Source: Naegleria gruberi (lineage: Eukaryota). Taken from it: a DNA stretch of 64,000 nucleotides. Shown here piece after piece: positions 7,112 through 62,737 of this stretch; the stretch's first letter is position 1, and every line of letters begins with the position of its first letter. The position numbers and the translations under genes were made by a program. The stretch lies in NCBI GenBank assembly GCA_000004985.1, contig GG738876.1, one strand, 5' to 3'. The notes beneath the pieces are model-generated. The model was not told the DNA's origin and did not search any database. It saw only the letters and a list, made by a program, of their open reading frames with translations.

Positions 7112-7969
7112 ATGGCAACAATTCAACAAGAACGTGAAATGATGTCGGTTGCTTCTCCTTCCGATGATCATCACAATAGTGCGGATGATGAGCAACAGGA
7201 ATTACCTTCACAACAAAATAATTATACAAATAATAATATTAACAAGGAAAATGTTGATTTGGAATCACAATTAGAACCATTGAAGGGTCCTGGTTTTTAT
7301 CCACAACAAGAAATTAATTGGCAAGCTATTGGAAACTTTTCGGGTATTGAACATCAAGTGAGACACAAGTTGAGAAGTATTTATTTAATTTTGGCTGGTA
7401 CAGTTTTGATGAGTACGTTGGGATCTGGTTTGGCAGTTTATTTCAGATTAGAACCATCTCTTCTTTATACAATTGTTGCTTTCGGATTTATGATTTATGT
7501 GGCAGTTACGAGCTCTTTGGCTGGATTGTTATTATTTGGTTTGACTATTGGATTGGAAATTGGACCTGCAATCAGAATGATTATGGAAGAAATTGATCCA
7601 AACCTTCCAATATTTGCTCTTGGAGCAACTTGTGTAGTATTTGCATGTTTTTCAGTTTTTGCTCATTTTTCTAAACGTAGAAGCATGCTGTACTTGGGTG
7701 GTATTTTGTCAAGTTTCCTCTCAGTTTTAATGTGGACTCTTTTATTTAGTTTCGTATTTGGAAGTTTTGCACTGTATGATATTTTGTCAATTTATGGAGG
7801 ACTTTTCATGTTTTGTGGTTTCATTGTTTTTGACACACAGCTCATTATTGAAAGACTACATGCTGGTGACAATGACCTCGTTAAAATGAGTTATCAATTA
7901 TTCATTGATTTCATTGCAATCTTTTTGAGAATTCTCATCATTTTGGCTAAGAGAAAATCAAAGGATTAA
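7112..7969 (+). CDS. TMBIM / Bax-inhibitor-1 family membrane protein (Lifeguard/Bxi1-like).
   Basis: ATG in an A-run. Seven predicted TM helices. The C-terminal 'FxxDTQLIIERLHAGDND...YQLFIDFIAIFLRILIIL' is the BI-1/TMBIM signature. Confidence 0.75.
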   Translation: MATIQQEREMMSVASPSDDHHNSADDEQQELPSQQNNYTNNNINKENVDLESQLEPLKGPGFYPQQEINWQAIGNFSGIEHQVRHKLRSIYLILAGTVLMSTLGSGLAVYFRLEPSLLYTIVAFGFMIYVAVTSSLAGLLLFGLTIGLEIGPAIRMIMEEIDPNLPIFALGATCVVFACFSVFAHFSKRRSMLYLGGILSSFLSVLMWTLLFSFVFGSFALYDILSIYGGLFMFCGFIVFDTQLIIERLHAGDNDLVKMSYQLFIDFIAIFLRILIILAKRKSKD

Positions 7970-9629: not shown

Positions 9630-10682
9630 AATTTCCATTCTTTAAGAATTGTCTCAAAAGGAATATTAACTTGTCCTAGGATGTTTTTGAAGATCAATAA
9701 AAGAAAGAGGAAGAACAAGATTGAGGATGATCAGGAAGTTGATCAAGAGGATGAAGGTCAAGATGAGAAGATGAGTGAAGAGAACCAACAGCAGCAATAC
9801 GAGGGGAATCCTAAAAGAGGAACAATCCCGCAACTATGGAAACACGTTTAAGAGAGGAGGAAAAGGATGATCCTATTTATTCCGTTCCTAATCTGTTTTG
9901 TTATTCACCTACTCGGGAAGCTTAGATCGCTCCTTAACTGATTAGTAATTCGAATAGGTATTTGCTTATGCGACCTAAAATTGTTGCATAATTTTCTCTC
10001 AGCACTTGGATTAAGAGTTGTAAGGATTTTCCATTATTAACTGCAAGTTGAACTAATAATATAAATATAGTTAAATTGACTATTAGTTCTTTATTGAGGT
10101 TAGTGTTTTCTAATATCCATCAAGAGGAAGAGATTCCTTTGAGGAATTGTTACCGAAATTAAGGAAAACAATTCTTATTGTGCACTTTACAAGCAAACAG
10201 ATTAACAAAACAGAACTTTGCCCAAAACGTAGTTCATTACCAAATCCAATCCTCACCATTTTAGTACGTGAACATTAATCAACGGTACTACACTTGCCAA
10301 GTACACAGCAAGTAAGCAAGGCAAGCAATCGCTTCCTTCTTGTTTAACAGTTTGTATAAAAACTTATCAAGGTTTTCCTTAATGCCTTGCGTGAAAGAAG
10401 CAAACGTCTATTTAAAGTTCTTTTATGGTTTAATTCGGCCTTAATTGCTTGAATTTTAACAAGTCCAGCCATCAAAACACAAATAAGGTAAAGGTAATCA
10501 CATCATTACGATAGCAATAGCGATACAAAAAGAGCCAAACATTGGAGTGGGTTTGCCTTCGAATCATTTGGCATTTTCTAAGTGCTCTCACAAAAAGAAA
10601 CTCCTCACCATCACTACCTCAGTTTCCCTTCCTCAATACTACTACTACTGCTGGCACTACAATCAATATAATCAAAGGCCTC

Positions 10683-11729
10683 ATGTCTATAAATTCCTCA
10701 ATAGTAAATTCTGCTGTTGTTGACAGTCCTCCTCGTCGTTGTGTTGATTCTCCCTCTTCATCTACCACATCAATATCAACATATACCGATAATAGTGATG
10801 AGAATAACTGCTTATTTCTCCCTCTTCGACCATCTCCAACTAGTCCACCTCAAAAATCTCAAGAGCAGCATCATGTTGAACCACATGCAAATAACAATTC
10901 CTCAACTGTTATAGAAATATCGGATGCTGCTACCCCAAACATGATTGTTTCTTCTCCACATCTTGAACCATGTAAATCTAGCTCATCACTCAATAGTACA
11001 ACAACAACATCAAGTAGTGGAACCATTTCATCTCAACAAGTTGGGCATGCCGAAGCAAGCAGTACACTAGCAGCAACATCTTTCCTTACATTCACTCCTC
11101 AGAATGCAGAAATCATCAAGCCAAAACGAACCAACAAGGCATGCACAGCTTGTAAATCTGCTCACAAAAAGTGCTCAAATACACGACCATGCACAAGGTG
11201 CATTTCCTTAAACAGAGAGGACAAGTGTGTAGACATGGACTCTGGGAGAAAACGAGGCAGGAGGGCTAATACACCTCGATCTGGAGGGTTACTAGTACAT
11301 AATTATGATCCCCATAATCCTTTTGTGTCTGGAAAGCCAAATACAGTTGTGTTTTCATTGCAACATGCAATTAATGAGGATCCTGGGAGCCATCATAAAC
11401 CATCCAAAAAGGTAAAACAAATTCCAACCTTACATGCTCCTGACATGTCCAATAATAATAATCATCATGCAACAAATGAACCCATAGGGCATGTAGATGT
11501 ACCACATGCTACTAACATGTTAAATCACACAAACATGCTTTATCCAACCTCTCATCATTTTTCAACACCATCTCATCATACTGATAATTTATCAACACCA
11601 TATCAGCATGCATCTCATTCTACCTCATCAACAATTCAAACAAGTCAAAAAACTCTTCCATCCATTAATGAATTAACAGAATGCAAAAATATTCTGTCGA
11701 ATTCTCAATCAGTTTTTTACCATCAATAA
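10683..11729 (+). CDS. Zn(II)2Cys6 binuclear-cluster (GAL4-type) transcription factor.
   Basis: 'CTACKSAHKKCSNTRPCTRCISLNREDKC' follows CX2CX6CX5CX2CX8C and is followed by the basic 'GRKRGRR'. The track start at 10542 is a TTG; the first ATG in frame is 10683 (MSINSS...). The protein is S/T/N/H-rich. Confidence 0.7.
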   Translation: MSINSSIVNSAVVDSPPRRCVDSPSSSTTSISTYTDNSDENNCLFLPLRPSPTSPPQKSQEQHHVEPHANNNSSTVIEISDAATPNMIVSSPHLEPCKSSSSLNSTTTTSSSGTISSQQVGHAEASSTLAATSFLTFTPQNAEIIKPKRTNKACTACKSAHKKCSNTRPCTRCISLNREDKCVDMDSGRKRGRRANTPRSGGLLVHNYDPHNPFVSGKPNTVVFSLQHAINEDPGSHHKPSKKVKQIPTLHAPDMSNNNNHHATNEPIGHVDVPHATNMLNHTNMLYPTSHHFSTPSHHTDNLSTPYQHASHSTSSTIQTSQKTLPSINELTECKNILSNSQSVFYHQ

Positions 11730-11758: not shown

Positions 11759-12904
11759 TTAATCAACCATATCAAAACTCTTTGAATTTTGCTGCTTGGA
11801 AACAAATCTCTCCTCATCGAACCATGTAATGGAATTATAATTTTCCATAGTTTTCATTGGAAATTCTTCAAATTGAGCAACATCATCGAAAACAACCCTA
11901 GTCTTTCCTGATTTTTCAACTCTAATTTCAATATCAAAATTTGCAAATGTACCACTGAATATTACTACATCCTTGCTCATGTCAAAAAGTTCTGTGAGTT
12001 TCTTGGAAATTTCGCATGAATATGAAAATGCATACCATATCTTGGCTTGTTCCAAAAGTGACTGGTGGAAATTCTTTCTTTCAAATACATTCCAATCATT
12101 CCAACCAATGAATTGTCTAAAATTTTTAGCATCCTTTCCAGAACATTGAGAGTATTCATCCAAAAGATAATTGATATATTTTTGAATAGCTTCTCTAGCT
12201 CTATTCAGGCATGTGTATCTCACAAAGAGTGCATATCTTTCTGGCTTGTCCATTGGAGAAAAGAGGAATTTACCTTTCGAATTTCTATCATATTTCAATT
12301 CTGGTGGAATAATTTCCCTTCCTTCCTTTTCCACAGAAAATTTCACTCTTCTCGAATCTTCCTCATCTTCCATTTCCTCTTGCTGTTGAGAAGAGTCCAT
12401 AAAATCACTCGTCCCAACATCAATCCTAAGCTTTCTATAAAAATACAATTCATTTTCCAATTCGTATTGCTCCTTGAATTTTGCAGAGAACTTTTCCAAC
12501 ACAAAATCTTGCCACGACTTGGAAACATAAACCATACACTGCAACAAATCTTTCAATTCCAAAAATTGGCTAATCAAATTCATTATCAATGAATTCTCCA
12601 AATATTCATTCCAATTAGCATCCACATATATCGAATTTGCAATTATTTTGTACGAATCCTTCTTCTCTCCAACATTTCTCCTAGTTGAAAATTGATTAAA
12701 AGCAATCTTTTGATTTCTTGATGATGTATCAGTCTCATTCTTGGCCGAAAGGATAGATCCCTTCCCAATGACCTTCCGATTACTAACCCTCTTCTTCTCA
12801 TTCCTATCTTGTTGCTGGTGATGAGAAACGATCAACATTCCCTCACCATCATCCAACTCAATGAGTGCAGGCATTTTTTTGCTATTCGGAAATTGTTTTC
12901 TCAT
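11759..12904 (-). CDS. Hypothetical protein with an F-box-like segment.
   Basis: ATG at 12904, continuous 381 aa. 'LISQFLELKDLLQCMVYVSKSWQDFV' resembles an F-box. An acidic stretch is present. No other domain is recognised. Confidence 0.45.
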   Translation of the reverse strand: MRKQFPNSKKMPALIELDDGEGMLIVSHHQQQDRNEKKRVSNRKVIGKGSILSAKNETDTSSRNQKIAFNQFSTRRNVGEKKDSYKIIANSIYVDANWNEYLENSLIMNLISQFLELKDLLQCMVYVSKSWQDFVLEKFSAKFKEQYELENELYFYRKLRIDVGTSDFMDSSQQQEEMEDEEDSRRVKFSVEKEGREIIPPELKYDRNSKGKFLFSPMDKPERYALFVRYTCLNRAREAIQKYINYLLDEYSQCSGKDAKNFRQFIGWNDWNVFERKNFHQSLLEQAKIWYAFSYSCEISKKLTELFDMSKDVVIFSGTFANFDIEIRVEKSGKTRVVFDDVAQFEEFPMKTMENYNSITWFDEERFVSKQQNSKSFDMVD

Positions 12905-14442: not shown

Positions 14443-15281
14443 ATGCTCAACACTTCAATTAGGAATTTATACTTGAATGCAAGAAAATCATCATCAATAT
14501 GTTTATCGATGAATAATAACAATAGATTGATGAAGAAACTCTCATCGGAATGTAAATGTTCCTTTTCGACAAGTATGAACAAATTACAGAGACCTATCAT
14601 TTCAAATCTAAATGCAAATTTACATACTCAACAACAACAACAACAAAATTCAACCTGTATTGTCATTCTCCCACAAACAAATAGAGGAAATTATATTTTA
14701 TTACGTGATGCTAATGGAAATTGTACACTTCCAAAAATTACACTTCCAAATAATTCGGAAATTGATTTACATAGAGAAATTGAAAATTTCTTATTAACTA
14801 GATGTGGACATGGATATGAATTATTGAAAACTGATCCTAAATTTCAAGTGGCTCAAGTGATATCCCCAGTTGTGGATTTTGATTTTACACATGGAAATTT
14901 AAATATTACTCACTATGTCTATCATGCTCAATCTCTGGATCAAACTGTTTCATTAAATGATTTGGATTTGGCAAATGGTGGCAAAAATTCTAAAACTCTT
15001 CACTTTATGTCAATTGTAGATATGGAAAAGGAATTGAATGATCCACAAATTATTAGAGATGTTGTCACAAGATATACTCTTTCGTTTTTAGTTTCTCAAA
15101 AGGTATGTTAAATTTTATATTACTGAAATAATTGTTATTGAAATATTTTGAATGGGACCAATTGAAAACTCTATAGATTAAGGAATCATTTGATATTAAA
15201 TTAGGAACTACCAGAATTATGTTTGCTACTGCTGGTATTCTCGTCAGCATTGTTGTTGGATTTATTGCTGGTCAATTTTAA
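14443..15281 (+). CDS. Hypothetical tail-anchored protein in two exons (14443..15102 and 15177..15281).
   Basis: The ORF ends '...SQK' followed by GTATGT. A 74-nt intron (15103..15176, ending TATAG) joins in phase 0 to 'IKESFDIKLGTTRIMFATAGILVSIVVGFIAGQF*', a C-terminal TM helix. The N-terminus is basic and Ser-rich, like a presequence. The ATG at 14443 lies only 2 nt after the upstream stop, so the true start may be a downstream ATG. Confidence 0.45.
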
Positions 15282-16352: not shown

Positions 16353-17287
16353 ATGTCCAAGGATTTTAGTATTGTCAAATTTAAGAAGGGCGAGGCAACC
16401 TTTGAAGTGTTGGTTAAGCCAAATACAGTGATTGCTCATCGTGAGGGAAAGATGGGAGTTGATGATGTTATTTATACTGATGAAATTTTCTCCAATTATG
16501 CCAAAGGTGATAAAGTTAAAGATGAATCATTAAAGGCTGTTTTCGGAACAACAAATGTTAAAGAAGTTATTACCAAGATTATTGCTGATGGTGAATATCA
16601 CATGTCTACTCAAGAACGTAAAGAAAAAGTTGATCAAAAGAGAAAGCAAATGATGTAAGTAGTAGTTTAAAATTATAATATGAATTTTAATGATGAATTT
16701 TCATAATAGTTACTTTATCCATCAAAATTACATTGATCCAAAGACTAATATTTGCCATCCTCTCACCCGTATTGAAAGTGCTTTGGATTCTGTCAAATAT
16801 GTAGGTTTTTATTGACCAGACTGTGATGATTTTAATATTTGATTTTAATATAGAATATTGATCCATTCATGCCAGCTGATAAACAAGTTGCTTCCATTCA
16901 CAGCAAGTTGGTTGAAAAGATTCCATTGAAAAAGTCACAAATTGAAGCTGAAATTGACGTCAAGCATCACGTTGCTGGTCAAGGTATGTTTTTATAATGA
17001 GAATGATAATAACAATTCAATTACATAATGAATTACAATATTAATTGAATCTATCAGCTCTTGGAACTTGTCACAAACATGCCAAAGTCGTTGGCCAAAA
17101 CTATACTGATACCGGTTGTACTATTAGTATTGAAATTTGTCCAGGTGAATATGACAAGCTTATTAATGAATTGAACTCATCCACAAAGGGAGATTTCCAA
17201 TTCAGAATTGCTGGTGCCTCAGCTAGTGTTGAAGCTTCCGAATCAAGTGATTCTGGTAAGAAGAAGAAGGGTGGTAAGAAGAAGTAA
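16353..17287 (+). CDS. SDO1: Ribosome maturation factor SBDS/Sdo1 in four exons: 16353..16654, 16710..16800, 16854..16983, 17058..17287.
   Basis: Exon 1 'FEVLVKPNTVIAHREGKMGVDDV...KEKVDQKRKQM' matches the SBDS N-domain. Introns: GTAAGT..AATAG (55 nt), GTAGGT..TATAG (53 nt), GTATGT..ATCAG (74 nt). The phases are consistent. The joined protein is ~250 aa and ends 'CPGEYDKLINELNSSTKGDFQFRI...GKKKKGGKKK'. Confidence 0.85.
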
Positions 17288-17842: not shown

Positions 17843-18820
17843 ATGATTTCAAAGGTGGCAATTCTTGCCTTGCTTTTTGCATGTTGCATGTTGATGATTG
17901 CTTTTACTCAAGCAACATCACCTGCTGGTTTGAGATACAGATATGTTGAAAATTTGAAGGAGGAAGAATTGGCTGATGAAGTTTTTGATCTTCTTGCTGA
18001 TAAGCTTGCTCATGTAGTTTCATCTAGTCAATCTCGTACTGGTTCTTACAATCCTGATACCAAGTCTCATGGAAAGGCTTTTGTTGTTACTCCAGGCATG
18101 AAAGGTGGAAACTATAGAACTCATTCTGATAAAGCATTTGTCATGACATCTGGCATGAGAGGTGGAAATTACAGAACAAACTCTGATATTAAAGCCTTTG
18201 TTATGACTCCAGGCATGAGAGGTGGAAATTACAGAACCAGTTCTGACAAGGCATTTGTCATGACATCTGGCATGAGAGGAGGTAACTATAGAACAAACTC
18301 TGATATTAAAGCCTTTGTTATGACACCAGGTATGAGAGGTGGAAATTACAGAACAAACTCTGATATTAAAGCATTCGTCATGACACCAGGTATGAGAGGT
18401 GGAAATTACAGAACCAGTTCTGATAAGGCATTCGTCATTACATCAGGAATGAGAGGAGGTAACTATAGAACAAATTCTGATATTAAAGCCTTTGTTATGA
18501 CACCAGGTATGAGAGGCGGAAATTACAGAACCAGTTCTGACAAGGCATTCGTCATGACATCTGGCATGAGAGGTGGAAATTACAGAACAAACTCTGATAT
18601 CAAAGCCTTTGTTATGACACCAGGTATGAGAGGAGGTAACTATAGAACCAGTGCTGATAAGGCATTCGTCATGACTTCTGGTATGAGAGGTGGAAACTAT
18701 AGAACTAATTCTGATAAGGTTGCTTATGAAGTAACTCCTGGAATGAGAGGTACAATTGGTCACACTACCTATAATCCAGGTACAGTTAACCATGGAAAGG
18801 CCTATGTTGTTAGAAAATAA
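17843..18820 (+). CDS. Secreted tandem-repeat protein of unknown function (signal peptide plus 12 repeats of 19/20 aa).
   Basis: The real ATG is 17843 (MISKVAILALLFACCMLMIAFTQA, a signal peptide); the track start is a GTG. The body is 'KAFVMTPGMRGGNYRTNSDI'/'KAFVMTSGMRGGNYRTSSD' alternating 12 times. Confidence 0.6.
   Translation: MISKVAILALLFACCMLMIAFTQATSPAGLRYRYVENLKEEELADEVFDLLADKLAHVVSSSQSRTGSYNPDTKSHGKAFVVTPGMKGGNYRTHSDKAFVMTSGMRGGNYRTNSDIKAFVMTPGMRGGNYRTSSDKAFVMTSGMRGGNYRTNSDIKAFVMTPGMRGGNYRTNSDIKAFVMTPGMRGGNYRTSSDKAFVITSGMRGGNYRTNSDIKAFVMTPGMRGGNYRTSSDKAFVMTSGMRGGNYRTNSDIKAFVMTPGMRGGNYRTSADKAFVMTSGMRGGNYRTNSDKVAYEVTPGMRGTIGHTTYNPGTVNHGKAYVVRK
18074..18740 (+). repeat. In-frame coding tandem repeat, ~117-nt (39-aa) double unit x ~5.5, nearly identical at the nucleotide level.
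   Basis: 'ggcatgagaggtggaaattacagaac(a/c)a(a/g)(c/t)tctgat' recurs every 57/60 nt. Only a few synonymous or S/N/T changes separate the copies. Confidence 0.7.
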
Positions 18821-19006: not shown

Positions 19007-20235
19007 TTAGAAATGGACAACCTTACAATGCACAAGCTCTGAAACAGAAGGACAATATGGGCACTTGAACTTTGGAGCGCTTCTTGTGGTGGAGAGGATT
19101 TTCTTTACAGAAGATTCTGCTAGCACATGATTGCAAGGAAGCAATAGTGGAGGATTTTCTGGAGTGGTTTGTTCTTTTGTAACTGGACATGAAAATATAG
19201 AATGATATTGGAATTCGTCATCCAAATCAATCTCAATAGCTAATTGTTCTGAAGATGTCCTTAAATCCATTCCTTGTGTCACACTAGCCAATTTGATCAA
19301 TGTAGGCACAGCTTGATAACCTGCAGTAATGGAAACATAAAGAGGAGATTCCATAGCTTGGTTGATTCTTCTACATCCAATTTTCTTAAATAATCGAAGT
19401 ACTTCAGTCCACAGTGATTCATCAAGTAAAGGTCTATATCTTTCAGATTTGAGTAACTTGTCTCTTCCAGAGTAAAGAATGCTTCCCATTAAATATTTAA
19501 TTTCCTCAATATTTTGATCGGAGAAGGATTGTAAATTATCTCTAGCATATTGAATAGCCTTCTTGGAATCATTCTGTACCAGTAATTCAACATATTGAAG
19601 CTTGTGCAATTGAAATGCTAACATCCTCAAATCTCTAAATTCTTTTTCATCAACTTTATCATGATTCCGAGCCTTTTCAATGTGACAATTACACCATTCA
19701 AGGGCTCTACTAATTTCCTTTCTTTTAAGAGATTGACTAATGGCATTCAATTCTCTAAATTGTTCCTTAAAATCATTAGAGACTGTAACACCAGCCTCCT
19801 TTTCGAATAATTCTCCAACATCTGTATTTCCTTCTCTGAAAAAGTGTTCAGCAATAATTTGATTGATTATATCCTCAGAGAGTTTCACCTTGTCTTGAAT
19901 AATCTTCTCCTGATCGGGAGGGAATTTTTCATTAATTGTTTTTCCAAATTTCGAAAGTTGTGAATGAAACTCTTTATGAGCCTGTTGAAATTTAGTATGA
20001 GTGTTTTTAATATGAGTAATAACATCCTTTCCAATATCTTTTATGCTCTTTCCTAAAGAGTTTCAATTTTTGAAACACATTATTTAAATAACTAACCTTC
20101 ATTTTGTATTTGATTTTTACAACTCTCAACATATTCAATTAAATTATCAATCTCCGATGTGAGAATATTAATGGTGGTTTTTTGCTTTTTGGAGGCTCTT
20201 TCATAATTTTCCACCAAATCTGAATCAGTTTGCAT
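19007..20235 (-). CDS. GID/CTLH-complex subunit, MAEA/Fyv10(Gid9)-like, with LisH-CTLH-CRA and a degenerate C-terminal RING. Two exons: 20235..20097 and 20052..19007.
   Basis: ATG at 20235 'MQTDSDLVENYERASKKQ...'. Intron 20096..20053 (GTTAGT...TTTAG, 44 nt, phase 1). The C-terminal 'CPVTKE...PCNHV...KFKCPYCPS...VHF' matches the MAEA/Fyv10 RING-like end. The CTLH/CRA helices lie in the middle. Confidence 0.75.
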
Positions 20236-20679: not shown

Positions 20680-21702
20680 ATGTTTAGAAACTTCCGTCGT
20701 TATGCCTCATCATCATCGGCATCATTTAATGCTCGTTTAAATCCAGCTGGTCACAAAATGTTGAATAATAGTGTCAGAACCTTCTCTGGTACTGCTTCCA
20801 GCTCTACTTTTTCTCCGCTTGTTAAAACTCTTGTTACTGGTGGTTTATTGATTGGTACTGGTTACCTTCTCAACAAGACTATGAATGAACCTACACAAGC
20901 TATCGGAAGATATGGTAATACATCAGAATTGGCCCAACAAAGACTTGTTCAACCAGACATGGCTAGAACTGGTTTGAATCCAATTGTTCAACAATACATG
21001 AGTGGTACTTACAAATATGTTGCCTTGAACGTTGCTCTTACAACTCTCTTTGCTGTTGGTGCTTACAAATCTGGCTTAGTTTTTAGAATTTTGAATATGA
21101 ATCCATGGATGCATTTGCTCGTCTTTGGTGGTGGTATGATTGGAACAAACATGATCACTAGATCTCTCGATATTAATACTAATAGTGCATTGAAGCATAC
21201 CATGTTGACTGCCTTCAACGGAATTGTTGGTTTGTCACTCTGTTATGTTGGTTTAATGTATAGACCAGAAATTATCATGAGAGCTGCTCTCTACACTGCT
21301 GGTATCTTTGGTGCCTTGTCCTATGTTGCTATCAATGCTGAACAAGACAAGTTCCTTTCTATGGGTGGTCCATTGTTGGCTGGTTTGGCTGTTGTCTTCT
21401 TGTCAAGCTTGGCTCCATTGGTTCTCCCAGCCACAATGACTAGAACTTTGCAAGCTACTGAAGCTATTGCTCTCTATGGTGGTTTGTTGTTGTTCGGTAT
21501 GTTCATCTTGTACGAAACCCAAAAGGTCAGAATGAAGGGTGAAAATTATAAGAATTATGTTGAATCTGAAACCATGAGAGGTACTCCAAACCACATGATC
21601 CAAAAGCCAGATTACATCAACTCTTCAATTTCTCTCTACATGGATATGGTCAACATTTTCGTTCGTTTGCTCTACATTCTCGGTGGTAACAATAGAAAGT
21701 AA
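20680..21702 (+). CDS. TMBIM-family membrane protein with an N-terminal presequence-like extension (GHITM/MICS1-like, probably mitochondrial).
   Basis: 'MFRNFRRYASSSSASFNARL' looks like a targeting peptide. It has 7 TM helices. 'LYGGLLLFGMFILYETQKV' and the C-terminal 'LYMDMVNIFVRLLYILGG' are the BI-1-like motif. It is a paralogue of the gene at 7112. Confidence 0.65.
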   Translation: MFRNFRRYASSSSASFNARLNPAGHKMLNNSVRTFSGTASSSTFSPLVKTLVTGGLLIGTGYLLNKTMNEPTQAIGRYGNTSELAQQRLVQPDMARTGLNPIVQQYMSGTYKYVALNVALTTLFAVGAYKSGLVFRILNMNPWMHLLVFGGGMIGTNMITRSLDINTNSALKHTMLTAFNGIVGLSLCYVGLMYRPEIIMRAALYTAGIFGALSYVAINAEQDKFLSMGGPLLAGLAVVFLSSLAPLVLPATMTRTLQATEAIALYGGLLLFGMFILYETQKVRMKGENYKNYVESETMRGTPNHMIQKPDYINSSISLYMDMVNIFVRLLYILGGNNRK

Positions 21703-21879: not shown

Positions 21880-21953
21880 TACGCCGTAAGGGAGTCGAAC
21901 CCTTGACCTTCAGCGTGTAAAGCTGACGATCTAACCAACTGATCTAACGGCGC
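21880..21953 (-). tRNA. tRNA-Val, anticodon UAC.
   Basis: Reverse complement GCGCCGT-TA-GATC-AGTTGGTTA-GATC-G-TCAGC-TTTACAC-GCTGA-AGGTC-AAGGG-TTCGACT-CCCTT-ACGGCGT-A. It folds as a cloverleaf with 7-bp acceptor, 4-bp D, 5-bp anticodon and 5-bp T stems. The B box GGTTCGACTCC is present, with U33 and A37. CCA is not encoded. Confidence 0.9.
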
Positions 21954-28554: not shown

Positions 28555-30552
28555 TTATTTTTCTTCCTCTTCCAAACTAACCTCCTTCTCAATCTTTCTA
28601 TATTTATACATATTTGCCATAACCAAATGAAACACCAATCCAACCAACATTAACAAGGCAAAGAATGAAAACTCATAAACTTGTTTCAATGGGAATTCCT
28701 TCAAAGTTCCCATTGGAATACTCGCCACCACCACAACAATTACATTTCCCATACTCACAGTTAAGAGATAGTAGGATTGGAGGAGGGATTTCATTTCCTT
28801 TGGGGATTGAGAGTAGGCAAATTCTAAACCAGTGACTGAGACAAAGATTTCGGCAATGCTTAGTAGAATGTATTGAGGAAGTTGCCAGGCAACGTGGATT
28901 TGACGTGGATACATACGGACAAAGATTTCAACGATGGCTGCTGCGACAAATGACATGGATGCAATGACCATTCCAATACCTATTTTACGGAGTGGTGTTA
29001 GGTAGTACTATAGTTGGAAAAATGATATTGATAATTTGGAAAGATTGTGAAATTGTTTTTAAAAAAATTGAGAAAATGGAAATTGTGAAATACTTACAAA
29101 TTTGGAAATGAGCTTGTAAATGAATCGATCGAAAACAATGACGAGTCCAATAACTAGGATTGGATTAATGGTTGTAATTTGATCACTTCCAAATACATAA
29201 CTTCCAACTCTTCTATTCATCATTTCAGCTTGAAACACAAATCTACTCGAATGTTGATCGAATAAAGACCAGAAAACAGTAATTGGTAATAAAGTAATGC
29301 ACACTCTATAGACACATTTGGCATCATTCACTTCCTTTTCAGTGCATTTACCTCTAGCTCTATCAAGCCAGTGATCATTCTTTTCATTGGAATTTAGAGT
29401 TTCATTCTTTTTGGTTTCGTCTATTGGAGTATGTTGAACGAGAACTGAAGTTTCATCACTACTGAGTGGTGAGCTAGGTCTTTCACCTCCTCCACCACCT
29501 CTCACTGCAGTAAATACCACTCTAAAAAACTTCAAAACTGGATTATTCTTCAATCCACTTGGTTTTACAACTCTGTACCAACATTTACCAATTGTGAAAA
29601 TGACAGTTGCCACTAATAACAAACCCAATGGAACAAAGAAAGCCACAGCATATCCAAATTGTGATCTGATGATTGGAGTTACGAATGAACTAACAGTTGA
29701 ACCAATGTTAATGGAAAAGTAAAAAATTGAAAAGAAGGAGGAAATTAATTCTCGTTGATCTTCTCTGAATTGATCAGCTCCAATGGATGAAACATTGGGT
29801 TTGATACCACCTGTTCCAACACCTACAAGGAAGAGACCTAGCATGCAACCCCACCAATGAGGTGGAGTTCCTGTCACTCCTTCAATGGCAGTGACACTAA
29901 TCACAGTCTGACCACTACAGTAAACCACTTTAAATTATTGGAATCTATTGAGAAATAATGAGTAATACTTACATAAAAGCAAAACAATGGTCCAATATTT
30001 ACCAATTAAAGCATCTGCCAAGAAGGCTCCCAAAATTGGTGTCACTTTTCAAAAATTGCTATTGAAATAATTGAAATACTTGAAAAACTTACAATATGCA
30101 AAAAAGACAAATGCGTGAACAATACTCGTTGATGCATCCTGATCAAATTTCAAATAATTCAACAAGTATAAACTGAGAATTGTCTTGAAACCATAAAACG
30201 CAAATCTTTCACACAATTCTGCAAACATGATAAACCACGTCGAGATTGGATACTCGACAAAGATGAAAACTCTTCTAACCCAATGTTTTTTCTGTTTTCC
30301 ACCTTCAATATTCTCATCATTCTTATCAAAATTCTCCTCATCATCACCATCATTCTCATGATTTTCATAATCATTTTCAAATTGATTATTTTCGGAGGAA
30401 ATAATTAAATGATTTTCCTGTTGATAACTTGAATATTGTTGCTCTCCTCCGAGTCTTGCTACTGCTCCATCCTCTTCATATGAGTTACTATTGGTATTAT
30501 CAATAAAATCAACTCCGTTCGGAGAAGATTCATCACTTTGCATTTTTTTCAT
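28555..30552 (-). CDS. PTR2: Proton-dependent oligopeptide transporter (POT/PTR2 family) in four exons: 30552..30093, 30044..29973, 29927..29098, 29007..28555.
   Basis: The N-terminal ~150 aa is an acidic low-complexity extension. 'FAELCERFAFYGFKTILSLYL' follows. Intron 1 is 30092..30045. 'LTPILGAFLADALIGKYWTIVLL' is the PTR2 signature. Intron 2 is 29972..29928. '...GTGGIKPNVSSIGADQF' follows. Intron 3 is 29097..29008 (90 nt). '...GLEFAYSQSPKEMKS' closes the protein. All introns are GTAAGT with consistent phases. 604 aa. Confidence 0.8.
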
Positions 30553-62663: not shown

Positions 62664-62737
62664 GCGCCGTTAGATCAGTTGGTTAGATCGTCAGCTTTAC
62701 ACGCTGAAGGTCAAGGGTTCGACTCCCTTACGGCGTA
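62664..62737 (+). tRNA. tRNA-Val, anticodon UAC (second copy, identical to 21880..21953, opposite orientation).
   Basis: The 74-nt sequence is identical and has the same cloverleaf. It is followed by TTTTTT at 62740..62745. Confidence 0.9.

What the first reader, a model, noticed from the sequence alone, without database searches (positions are those of the whole stretch)
17843..18820. Secreted protein built from 12 near-identical 19/20-aa tandem repeats (KAFVMTPGMRGGNYRTNSDI)
A signal peptide is followed by a short unique region and then 12 alternating repeats, 'KAFVMTPGMRGGNYRTNSDI' and 'KAFVMTSGMRGGNYRTSSD'. The 117-nt double unit is almost invariant at the DNA level, which implies recent expansion or ongoing homogenisation. 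Silent differences are rare, and the few changes cluster at S/N/T positions (possible glycosylation or phosphorylation sites). I do not recognise the repeat as a known family. It could be a cell-surface adhesin or effector-like protein whose copy number is likely polymorphic. A shadow antisense ORF (18443..18793) is an artefact of the repeat.
Basis: seen in the sequence. Interest (0 to 1): 0.55.

Follow-up and report, generated by a model that had tools for sequence, protein, structure and literature searches.

The report
Unannotated Naegleria secreted repeat-peptide gene
An unannotated gene of the amoeba Naegleria gruberi encodes a secreted protein with about a dozen copies of a 19-20-residue basic peptide that selection keeps nearly identical while the DNA has drifted, so it is most likely a multi-copy peptide precursor of unknown activity.

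Summary
The ORF (17843..18820, +, 325 aa) and its repeat array are real. First, the DNA is not near-invariant. The units are on average 83% identical (74-96%), with pS 0.60 against pN 0.046 (18 synonymous versus 7 non-synonymous codon changes, P=1e-7). The array is therefore old and the peptide sequence is under purifying selection; it has not recently expanded or been homogenised. Second, the genome is not fungal. The neighbouring ORFs are exact matches to Naegleria gruberi NEG-M proteins. The repeat gene itself is missing from the protein collections, so it appears to be unannotated. An exhaustive HMMER search found only three true relatives: N. gruberi NAEGRDRAFT_74762, Willaertia magna KAL9651282, and one environmental sequence. 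All share a signal peptide, an acidic 'ELADxLxDxLADK' segment and basic units with the core [KR]A[YF]x[VM]TPGMRG. The Willaertia units are also identical in peptide but differ in codons, and each carries a KR site. The best reading is a pre-pro-polyprotein that releases many copies of one peptide, as alpha-factor, KEP and apidaecin precursors do. Processing is inferred, not shown, and the N. gruberi array has no dibasic sites. The main rival is an intact beta-solenoid or surface protein (AF2 pLDDT about 65-72, no fold match).

The parts
17843..18820 (+). Complete single-exon CDS (325 aa plus stop) of an unannotated N. gruberi secreted repeat protein
   Evidence: The ORF is shown. The A-rich context before the ATG (cgaaaaaaaATG) resembles that of the paralogue (gaaaaaaaaATG). 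The exact sequence is absent from the 15-billion-protein collection, and the exhaustive phmmer search returned no self-hit.
17843..17914 (+). Predicted signal peptide, residues 1-24 (MISKVAILALLFACCMLMIAFTQA | TS)
   Evidence: The hydrophobic core at residues 5-21 has mean KD 2.94, followed by a T-Q-A cleavage motif. It aligns with the signal peptides and the 'YTQA|SSPG' motif of P0005 and P0034. SignalP was not available.
17915..18073 (+). Pro-region, residues 25-77, pI 5.1. It contains the acidic amphipathic segment EEELADEVFDLLADK (17960-18004) and a degenerate proto-unit LAHVVSSSQSRTGSYNPDTKSHG (18005-18073).
   Evidence: The ELAD..D.L.D motif is invariant across the four family members. 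Alignment of this non-repeat region to P0005 and P0034 gives z = 15 and 11 against shuffles. AF2 predicts a helix at residues 40-53 at low confidence. pI is.
18074..18715 (+). Array of 11 canonical units (19 or 20 aa) with consensus KAFVMT[P/S]GMRGGNYRT[N/S]SD(I). The array has pI 10.8 and net charge about +22.
   Evidence: Unit coordinates are. Mean DNA identity is 83%, pS 0.60, pN 0.046. There are 18 synonymous versus 7 non-synonymous codon-allele changes, P = 1.2e-7. TRF periods are 117, 177 and 294 nt.
18716..18796 (+). Degenerate terminal unit KVAYEVTPGMRGTIGHTTYNPGTVNHG. This is the unit most similar to the Willaertia unit RAYEVTPGMRGMIGVKR.
   Evidence: tblastn of P0016 against window 18485-18754, E = 2e-11.
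18797..18820 (+). C-terminal partial unit KAYVVRK plus the TAA stop. It holds the only dibasic pair (RK) in the protein.
18443..18793 (-). Antisense shadow ORF (116 aa); not a gene
   Evidence: Listed. It has no homologue in 5.8 billion proteins. This antisense frame has only 1 stop across the array as a by-product of the sense codon composition. The selection signature and the homologues are all on the + strand.

Best explanation
This is a real but unannotated gene of Naegleria gruberi NEG-M. It belongs to a very small family so far seen only in Heterolobosea. The family architecture is a signal peptide, an acidic amphipathic pro-segment (ELADxLxDxLADK) and basic peptide units with the core [K/R]-A-[Y/F]-x-[V/M]-T-P-G-M-R-G.

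In this gene the unit has been multiplied to 11 canonical copies plus one degenerate copy. Every copy is held to nearly the same amino-acid sequence by purifying selection.

The most likely mechanism is a pre-pro-polyprotein. The signal peptide takes it into the ER. The acidic pro-segment offsets the strongly cationic array, which carries about +22 charge. Endoproteolysis within or between the units then releases about a dozen copies of one short basic peptide, with core KAFVMT[P/S]GMRGGNY(R), into the medium or into vesicles. The copy number serves as a dosage device, as in yeast alpha-factor, fungal KEPs, apidaecin and neuropeptide polyproteins.

Shown: the coding status, the signal-peptide-like N-terminus, the family membership and the per-unit purifying selection.
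Inferred: secretion, proteolytic processing, the exact peptide boundaries and the peptide's activity (signalling or antimicrobial).
For: 1. Selection acts on the peptide, not the DNA.
- pN/pS is 0.076 and mean DNA identity is 83%. There are 18 synonymous versus 7 non-synonymous codon changes on 12.5 versus 44.5 sites, P = 1.2e-7.
- The four full Willaertia units repeat the result independently. Their 17-residue cores are identical and pS = 0.51.
- Yeast MFalpha1 shows the same signature. Sixteen synonymous DNA variants encode one alpha-factor peptide, and the amino-acid variants lie at the array edges (PMC5850478). Here too the first and last units are the divergent ones.

2. The unit works as an autonomous module.
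- Relatives carry 2 units (P0005, P0034) or 5 units (Willaertia). These are separated by acidic helices and multibasic sites: KKR and SKR in P0034, RHRK in P0005, and KR in every full-length Willaertia unit (KK in the truncated last one).
- The first Willaertia unit begins directly after the predicted signal-peptidase site (VSA|RAYEV).

3. Variation among units falls largely in the putative spacer.
- In N. gruberi, three of the six variable positions lie in the spacer T-[N/S/H]-[S/A]-D-(I), including the indel. The other three are positions 5, 7 and 10.
- In Willaertia the spacer varies as LSD, MAD and FFSDGEFLDELADRLADILTD. The core TPGMRG is conserved between the two genera.

4. An acidic pro-region (pI 5.1) precedes a basic array (pI 10.8).

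5. The short paralogue shows no compact predicted fold: AF2 pLDDT is 48 with a 4-sequence MSA.

6. The relationship is real outside the repeats: z = 11-15 for the N-terminal region, and profile E-values of 1e-28 to 1e-50.

7. The criteria for KEP-type precursors come from PMC6339444.
Against: - The N. gruberi array contains no KR, RR or KK site. Only a conserved single Arg (NYR|T, with R at P6) lines up with the Willaertia K of the KR site. Processing here would have to be monobasic or use another protease.
- There is no transcript, proteomic or peptidomic evidence. No processing protease was identified in Naegleria.
- The units abut without a clearly distinct spacer.
- AF2 folds the array as regular beta structure with pLDDT 63-72, which is compatible with an intact repeat protein.
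- The family has only four known members, so the comparative inference is thin.
- No modifying or processing genes are clustered nearby.
Confidence: 0.45

Rival explanations
1. The protein stays intact as a secreted or surface-bound repeat protein. The 19-20-residue units stack as coils of a beta-solenoid or fibre, giving a rigid, strongly cationic rod. It could serve in adhesion, in the cyst wall or matrix, or in binding bacterial or polyanionic surfaces.
For: - AF2 on the single sequence gives two to three short strands per unit and a regular all-beta array, with pLDDT 63-72 and pTM 0.53.
- The nearest Foldseek neighbours, although not significant, are all beta-helices: tailspikes, pectate-lyase-like proteins, RTX and antifreeze proteins.
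- A 19-20-residue period with Gly, Asn and Pro at regular turn positions fits known solenoid coil lengths (my own knowledge).
- The first and last units are divergent and could act as caps.
- The array has no dibasic cleavage sites.
Against: - No Foldseek match is significant (best E = 0.5, TM <= 0.34) and the model confidence is low. AF2 is known to build solenoids from near-perfect repeats (my own knowledge).
- Relatives with only two units separated by helices and multibasic sites cannot form a solenoid.
- The short paralogue has no confident fold.
- Structural solenoids usually conserve only the core positions. Here nearly every residue of every unit is conserved.
Confidence: 0.3
2. It is an extracellular, intrinsically disordered polycation. 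Its repeated RGG and Tyr motifs would bind polyanions such as nucleic acids, bacterial envelopes or polysaccharides, or act as an adhesive, in the manner of basic Tyr/Lys-rich decapeptide-repeat adhesive proteins.
For: - The mature protein has pI 10.2 and net charge about +23. Gly, Thr, Arg, Met, Ser and Asn dominate the array. Each unit contains an RGG motif and a Tyr. There is no Cys after the signal peptide.
- AF2 confidence is only moderate.
Against: - Such proteins tolerate sequence drift as long as composition is kept. Here the exact sequence is conserved in every unit and the core TPGMRG is conserved across genera.
- Each unit contains a hydrophobic AFVM stretch.
Confidence: 0.1
3. One reading: a recently expanded or actively homogenised array with polymorphic copy number, in a fungal adhesin or effector.
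For: The higher-order periodicity (117 and 294 nt) shows that the array grew by duplicating multi-unit blocks. The closest unit pair differs at only 2 of 57 nt.
Against: - Mean unit identity is 83% and pS is 0.60. The two 294-nt blocks match at only 86%.
- The organism is Naegleria gruberi, not a fungus.
Confidence: 0.04
4. It is not a gene: an intergenic minisatellite that happens to stay open in one frame.
For: The gene is absent from the reference annotation and from all protein collections.
Against: - There is a strong excess of synonymous change in this frame only. The other two sense frames have 20 and 27 stops.
- The ORF has a signal peptide and a pro-region homologous to proteins from N. 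gruberi, Willaertia and an environmental contig.
- It fits neatly between the SBDS gene (stop at 17287) and the RMD5-like gene (stop at 19007).
Confidence: 0.02

Closest known systems
Yeast alpha-factor precursor (MFalpha1) and fungal KEX2-processed repeat proteins (KEPs; PMC6339444, PMC5850478)
   Same: [quoted passage not shown] The 19-20-aa units fall within the common 9-24-aa KEP motif class.
- The repeats differ synonymously while encoding the same peptide, and the variants sit at the array edges.
- The Willaertia homologue has a KR in each full-length unit, followed by a short acidic spacer (LSD or MAD). This resembles KR-EAEA in alpha-factor.
   Different: - There is no sequence similarity to any KEP.
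- The organism is a heterolobosean amoeba, not a fungus.
- The N. gruberi array has no KR, RR or KK between its units, so it fails the defining KEP criterion.
- The acidic amphipathic 'ELAD' pro-segment, which recurs before units in the relatives, has no KEP counterpart.
- Processing has not been demonstrated.
Multi-copy antimicrobial peptide polyproteins (apidaecin, magainin; cited in PMC5850478) and acidic-propiece cationic-AMP precursors
   Same: An acidic pro-segment precedes repeated short cationic peptides rich in Gly, Pro and Arg. The organism is a bacterivore, for which secreted antimicrobials are plausible.
   Different: - There is no sequence similarity.
- Each unit carries only about +2 net charge and is not an amphipathic helix.
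- There are no dibasic or dipeptidyl spacer motifs.
- Antimicrobial activity has not been tested.
Naegleriapore precursors (multi-peptide SAPLIP precursors of Naegleria; mentioned in PMC5850478)
   Same: They set a precedent, in the same genus, for several secreted effector peptides being released from one precursor.
   Different: To my knowledge, naegleriapores are Cys-rich saposin-like domains of about 80-100 aa. This protein has no Cys after the signal peptide and its units are 19-20 aa, so the two are unrelated in sequence.
Beta-solenoid repeat proteins (antifreeze and ice-binding proteins, RTX, tailspikes)
   Same: The coil-length period is 19-20 residues, Gly and Asn recur at regular turn positions, the AF2 model is all-beta, and the terminal units are divergent.
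   Different: There is no significant structural match and the model confidence is low. Family members with only two units cannot be solenoids.

Membership tests
KEX2-processed repeat proteins (KEPs), as defined in PMC6339444 | N-terminal signal peptide | tested here: met
   Manual criteria only: K4, a 17-residue hydrophobic core (KD 2.94) and T-Q-A|T. The feature is conserved in the relatives. SignalP was not run.
KEX2-processed repeat proteins (KEPs), as defined in PMC6339444 | At least three internal repeats, together occupying at least 15% of the protein | tested here: met
   There are 11 canonical units plus one degenerate unit. The array covers 214 of 325 residues (66%).
KEX2-processed repeat proteins (KEPs), as defined in PMC6339444 | KR, RR or KK cleavage sites between the repeats | tested here: not met
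   The only dibasic pair in the protein is the C-terminal RK at residues 324-325. The Willaertia homologue does have KR in its four full-length units and KK in the truncated fifth.
KEX2-processed repeat proteins (KEPs), as defined in PMC6339444 | Fungal origin, with a KEX2 protease in the genome | tested here: not met
   The organism is Naegleria gruberi. The presence of a kexin-like convertase in Naegleria was not established; the literature search was uninformative.
   The invariant columns E42, L43, A44, D45, D49, L51, D53, A56 and V59 are shown in alignment A1. Profile E-values are 1e-28 to 1e-50. The non-repeat region scores z = 11-15.
Beta-solenoid proteins | A confident solenoid fold or a significant structural match to a known beta-helix | tested here: inconclusive
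   The AF2 array has pLDDT 63-72 and pTM 0.53. The best Foldseek PDB hit has E = 0.5 and TM <= 0.34.
Amidated neuropeptide or hormone polyproteins | Peptide copies ending in Gly followed by basic residues (G-K/R-K/R) | tested here: not met
   No G-[KR]-[KR] motif is present; the unit reads ...GMRGGNYRT....
Saposin-like naegleriapore precursors | Repeated Cys-rich saposin domains | tested here: not met
   The only Cys residues are at positions 14 and 15, inside the signal peptide. There is no Pfam saposin hit.
Pfam Rho_RNA_bind (PF07497) and Pox_A22 (PF04848) | A score above the gathering threshold, with at least one significant domain stretch | tested here: not met
   Rho_RNA_bind scores 26.4 bits against a cut-off of 27. 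Pox_A22 scores 22.0 against a cut-off of 22. For both, 0 stretches pass on their own, so the scores are summed over repeats and are an artefact.

The most novel reading that the evidence does not exclude
The gene encodes the precursor of a diffusible peptide signal of Naegleria, such as a mating pheromone, a quorum factor, or a differentiation or encystment factor. About twelve copies per translation product would amplify the dose, as in alpha-factor. It would be the first peptide-signal polyprotein in Heterolobosea. It uses a processing logic different from the KR-based fungal and animal systems, and it has been missed by genome annotation. That would give a concrete molecular handle on cell-cell communication, and possibly on the long-suspected cryptic sexuality, in Naegleria.
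Probability: 0.1. Interest if true: 0.8.

Novelty: new variant of a known kind. Interest (0 to 1): 0.4.

Why it matters
If the reading is right, the model amoeba Naegleria gruberi has an overlooked gene whose only plausible purpose is to make many copies of one short secreted peptide. The gene is absent from the reference proteome.

Selection has preserved that peptide through enough time to nearly saturate silent sites. Its core is shared with Willaertia. No secreted signalling or repeat-peptide system is known to me in Heterolobosea.

The peptide can be synthesised and tested directly for effects on bacteria, on the amoeba-to-flagellate switch, on encystment and on chemotaxis.

The case also shows that short repetitive secreted genes are systematically lost in protist annotation. 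The one annotated orthologue, in Willaertia, appears to be mis-modelled.

If the protein is instead an intact surface repeat protein, it is an ordinary lineage-specific orphan.

Tried and rejected
- **Pfam**: only sub-threshold, repeat-summed hits (Rho_RNA_bind, Pox_A22). Rejected.
- **Word-indexed homologue search with the whole protein**: nothing.
- **Exhaustive phmmer**: 33 hits, of which only P0005, P0016 and P0025 are credible.
  - The higher-scoring P0001-P0004, P0008 and others are unrelated periodic proteins, including a Cys-rich 20-aa repeat, a VCBS protein and a Drosophila protein. Their scores are inflated by repeat-on-repeat alignment.
  - P0006 is a giant-virus protein. Its single-unit similarity has P = 2.5e-4, which is far from significant once database size is allowed for.
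- **Profile search with the family alignment**: the same three proteins only.
- **Metagenome scans**: a 45-bit two-unit DNA pattern found 0 matches. The short-paralogue profile matched 93 stretches, none of which tblastn confirmed. Automatic pattern design on A1 failed.
- **Exact-contig look-ups** for the protein and two neighbours: nothing. The N. gruberi assembly is evidently not in that index.
- **Synteny through CapZ-beta** into N. fowleri and N. lovaniensis: the neighbourhood is rearranged and no family member lies within 10 kb. Presence or absence of orthologues in those species remains unknown.
- **Foldseek against PDB** and **PDB sequence search**: nothing significant.
- **AF2 of the short paralogue**: too low in confidence to be used as positive evidence.
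- **Literature searches** for the motif, for the paralogue's locus tag, and for a Naegleria kexin: nothing.
- **A clustered processing or modifying enzyme** of the RiPP type: rejected. The neighbours are housekeeping genes.
Full report
**1. The observation**

The + strand carries an uninterrupted ORF from the ATG at 17843 to the TAA at 18818-18820, encoding 325 aa. The protein has these parts:

| Residues | Feature |
|---|---|
| 1-24 | Signal-peptide-like N-terminus, MISKVAILALLFACCMLMIAFTQA|TS. The 17-residue hydrophobic core has mean Kyte-Doolittle 2.94 and is the only strongly hydrophobic segment. Small residues sit at -3 and -1. |
| 25-77 | Unique region |
| 78-291 | Tandem array of 11 canonical units |
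| 292-318 | Degenerate 27-aa unit, KVAYEVTPGMRGTIGHTTYNPGTVNHG |
| 319-325 | Partial unit, KAYVVRK |

The canonical units come in two types. One is KAFVMTSGMRGGNYRTNSDI (20 aa) and the other is KAFVMTPGMRGGNYRTSSD (19 aa). They alternate imperfectly: the unit at 18308 is a hybrid and the first unit diverges (KAFVVTPGMKGGNYRTHSD).

TRF reports periods of 117, 177 and 294 nt with 84-86% matches. This is the only strong tandem repeat in the window. A degenerate two-unit DNA pattern occurs 10 times against 0 expected.

**2.

The units are not near-identical at the nucleotide level.
- Over the shared 57 nt, pairwise identity averages 83% (range 74-96%).
- Fourteen of the 19 codon positions carry synonymous variants.
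- pS = 0.60, pN = 0.046 and pN/pS = 0.076.
- Counting codon alleles parsimoniously gives 18 synonymous and 7 non-synonymous changes on 12.5 and 44.5 sites. The binomial P is 1.2e-7.
- Even units of the same type differ at 2-10 of 57 nt.

The array is therefore old and silent sites are close to saturation. What is conserved is the peptide. This is the opposite of 'recent expansion or ongoing homogenisation'.

The result also establishes the reading frame. The other two sense frames contain 20 and 27 stops. The antisense ORF (18443..18793) is open only as a by-product of the sense codon composition, and it has no homologue.

**3. The organism and the annotation status**

- The SBDS gene immediately upstream (16353..17287) is split by three GT..AG introns of about 50-70 nt. 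The window has 34% GC and is gene-dense with eukaryotic housekeeping genes.
- Exact look-ups show that eight neighbouring ORFs are in the collection. Six of them carry Naegleria gruberi NEG-M accessions within EFC42948-EFC42967, on a 396,977-bp scaffold. The other two fall in clusters whose N. gruberi members have different gene models. The window is not fungal.
- The 325-aa protein is not in the 15-billion-sequence collection.
- An exhaustive phmmer search of 1.84 billion cluster representatives, which include the N. gruberi proteome, returned no self-like hit.
- The antisense product is not annotated either.

The gene appears to have been missed by annotation. It fills the 1.7-kb gap between the SBDS stop (17287) and the stop of the convergent RMD5-like CTLH-RING gene (19007).

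**4. Relatives**

No Pfam family passes its threshold and there is no PDB relative. Of the 33 phmmer hits, most are unrelated periodic proteins whose scores are inflated by repeat-on-repeat alignment. Three are credible:

| Relative | Length | Architecture |
|---|---|---|
| P0025/P0034 = N. gruberi NAEGRDRAFT_74762 (XP_002670269) | 134 aa | SP..YTQA|SSPG - ELADALVDVILSDK - VAHEVKPNNAGKYNPDEIFY - KKR - spacer with SKR - MADK - IAYEIKANNAGKYNPDRPVK |
| P0005, from a 598-bp ENA metagenome contig | 116 aa | Same plan, with RHRK between the two modules |
| P0016 = Willaertia magna KAL9651282 | 121 aa | See below |

In the Willaertia genome (L001 10001-10404) the gene reads as follows. A signal peptide (..VSA|) is followed by five units. 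Units 1-4 are RAYEVTPGMRGMIGVKR and unit 5 is the truncated RAYEVTPGMRGVKKY. The spacers between them are LSD, FFSDGEFLDELADRLADILTD, MAD and LSD.

The relationship does not depend on the repeats. The non-repeat pro-region of the query scores z = 15 against P0005 and z = 11 against P0034 relative to shuffles. The columns E-L-A-D..D.L.D..A..V are invariant.

A profile of the four sequences found nothing further in 5.8 billion proteins. Two metagenome scans also found nothing. The family is therefore tiny and is known so far only from Heterolobosea.

**5. What the anatomy suggests**

The family module is an acidic amphipathic segment followed by a basic unit that starts [K/R](x)A[Y/F/H]x[V/I/M][T/K]. 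In the two longer members the core [K/R]A[Y/F]x[V/M]TPGMRG is conserved between genera. Four observations favour a polyprotein that is cut into many copies of one peptide.

- (a) **Per-unit purifying selection.** Synonymous drift with a constant peptide is seen independently in N. gruberi and in Willaertia, where the 17-residue cores are identical and pS = 0.51. Yeast MFalpha1 behaves the same way. Sixteen synonymous DNA variants encode the same alpha-factor, and the amino-acid variants lie at the array edges (PMC5850478). Here too the edge units are the divergent ones.
- (b) **Variable copy number.** Family members have 2, 2, 5 and about 12 units. In three of the four, multibasic sites lie between or inside the modules. 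The first Willaertia unit starts right at the signal-peptidase site.
- (c) **Variation largely in a spacer-like segment.** Three of the six variable positions in N. gruberi, including the indel, lie in T-[N/S/H]-[S/A]-D-(I); the others are positions 5, 7 and 10. In Willaertia the variation is confined to LSD, MAD and the long spacer. KAFV, GMRGGNYR and RAYEVTPGMRGMIGVKR do not vary.
- (d) **Charge layout.** An acidic pro-region (pI 5.1) precedes a strongly basic array (pI 10.8, about +22). To my knowledge this is the usual arrangement in precursors of cationic peptides.

The short paralogue has no confident compact fold (AF2 pLDDT 48). This is weak supporting evidence.

**6. What argues against it**

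- The N. gruberi array has no KR, RR or KK site. The only dibasic pair is the C-terminal RK.
- In my manual alignment, the conserved Arg of NYR|T aligns with the K of the Willaertia KR. It has an Arg at P6, which fits monobasic-site rules as I recall them. This is inference only.
- No protease was identified, and the literature search for a Naegleria kexin was uninformative.
- No processing or modifying genes are clustered nearby.
- AF2 on the single sequence folds the array as regular beta structure with pLDDT 63-72 and pTM 0.53. The non-significant Foldseek neighbours are beta-helices (best E = 0.5).

An intact beta-solenoid or fibrous cationic surface protein therefore remains a serious rival. 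I discount it partly for three reasons: two-unit family members cannot be solenoids, almost every residue of the unit is conserved rather than only the core positions, and AF2 tends to build solenoids from near-perfect repeats (my own knowledge).

**7. Comparison with what is known**

- **KEPs and alpha-factor.** Functionally the closest kind is the secreted multi-copy peptide polyprotein: alpha-factor and fungal KEPs, apidaecin-type AMP polyproteins, and neuropeptide precursors. Against the published KEP definition of signal peptide, at least three repeats, dibasic sites between the repeats, and repeats covering at least 15% of the protein (PMC6339444), this gene meets three criteria and fails the dibasic-site criterion. 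It is also not fungal. It should not be filed as a KEP. The Willaertia homologue would pass the sequence criteria.
- **Naegleriapores.** These are a same-genus precedent for multi-peptide precursors, but they are Cys-rich saposin-like domains. This protein has no Cys after its signal peptide.
- **Amidated peptides.** The protein has no amidation-type G-K/R-K/R motif.

**8. Verdict**

The gene is real, selected and unannotated, and it encodes a secreted tandem-repeat protein of N. gruberi. My confidence in that is about 0.9.

The most likely mechanism is release of about 12 copies of a basic peptide of roughly 14-20 aa, with confidence about 0.45. The activity of that peptide is unknown.

'Secreted' and 'unknown family' stand.

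Interest is moderate. It is a clean, testable candidate for a new peptide-precursor family in a model protist, but for now it rests on four sequences and no expression data.

Noticed in passing
window 17843-18820: The gene is absent from the N. gruberi NEG-M reference proteome and from all protein collections searched, although eight flanking ORFs were found by exact look-up and six of them are N. gruberi NEG-M proteins. Short repetitive secreted genes may be missed systematically in this genome.
   Followed up: partly
L001 10001-10404 (Willaertia magna JBEGDK010000072, about 29.3 kb): The annotated model KAL9651282.1 does not translate colinearly. The genomic sequence shows five RAYEVTPGMRG units and a frame change at a T-run (AAAAGATTTTTTCTGATGG). 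The annotated 'intron' probably papers over a homopolymer sequencing error or a real frameshift.
   Followed up: partly
L008 1526-4333 (JGI metagenome 3300013093, contig Ga0164296_1000079): P0006 is a 935-aa protein that lies just upstream of two NCLDV major-capsid-protein genes on a 119-kb giant-virus contig. It carries 35-aa repeats (DRAGFLGGDRGGNYTVDFKTMTPDPTMRDIHDKT) that align in register with the Naegleria double unit (G.RGGNY..D.K..MTP.MR). The single-unit similarity has P = 2.5e-4, which is not significant database-wide, so this is probably chance. It is still curious, given that giant viruses infect amoebae.
   Followed up: partly
window 10542-11729 (+): An ORF has a Pfam 'fungal Zn(2)-Cys(6) binuclear cluster' domain hit (E = 3e-5, above the gathering score) in a heterolobosean genome.
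   Followed up: no
window 7112-7969 (+) and 20680-21702 (+); 21880-21953 (-) and 62664-62737 (+): Two Bax-inhibitor-1 family paralogues lie 13 kb apart and flank the repeat gene region. There are also two tRNA-Val(TAC) genes in the window.
   Followed up: no
window 29059-29928 (-); L004 1-686; L007 1-1227: A POT/PTR2 peptide-transporter gene lies 3 kb from CapZ-beta in N. gruberi. It is also within 10 kb of CapZ-beta in N. fowleri and N. lovaniensis, although on the opposite side and with the rest of the neighbourhood rearranged. In N. fowleri a LINE-like element (Exo_endo_phos_2 plus RVT_1 and RNase_H, L004 13734-17820) lies next to the RING-RWD gene, whose N. gruberi copy lies 3.4 kb upstream of the repeat gene.
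   Followed up: partly
window 14443-15111 (+) and 11759-12904 (-): Two sizeable ORFs near the repeat gene have no Pfam domain. The first is rich in Asn and Gln. Their function is unknown.
   Followed up: no
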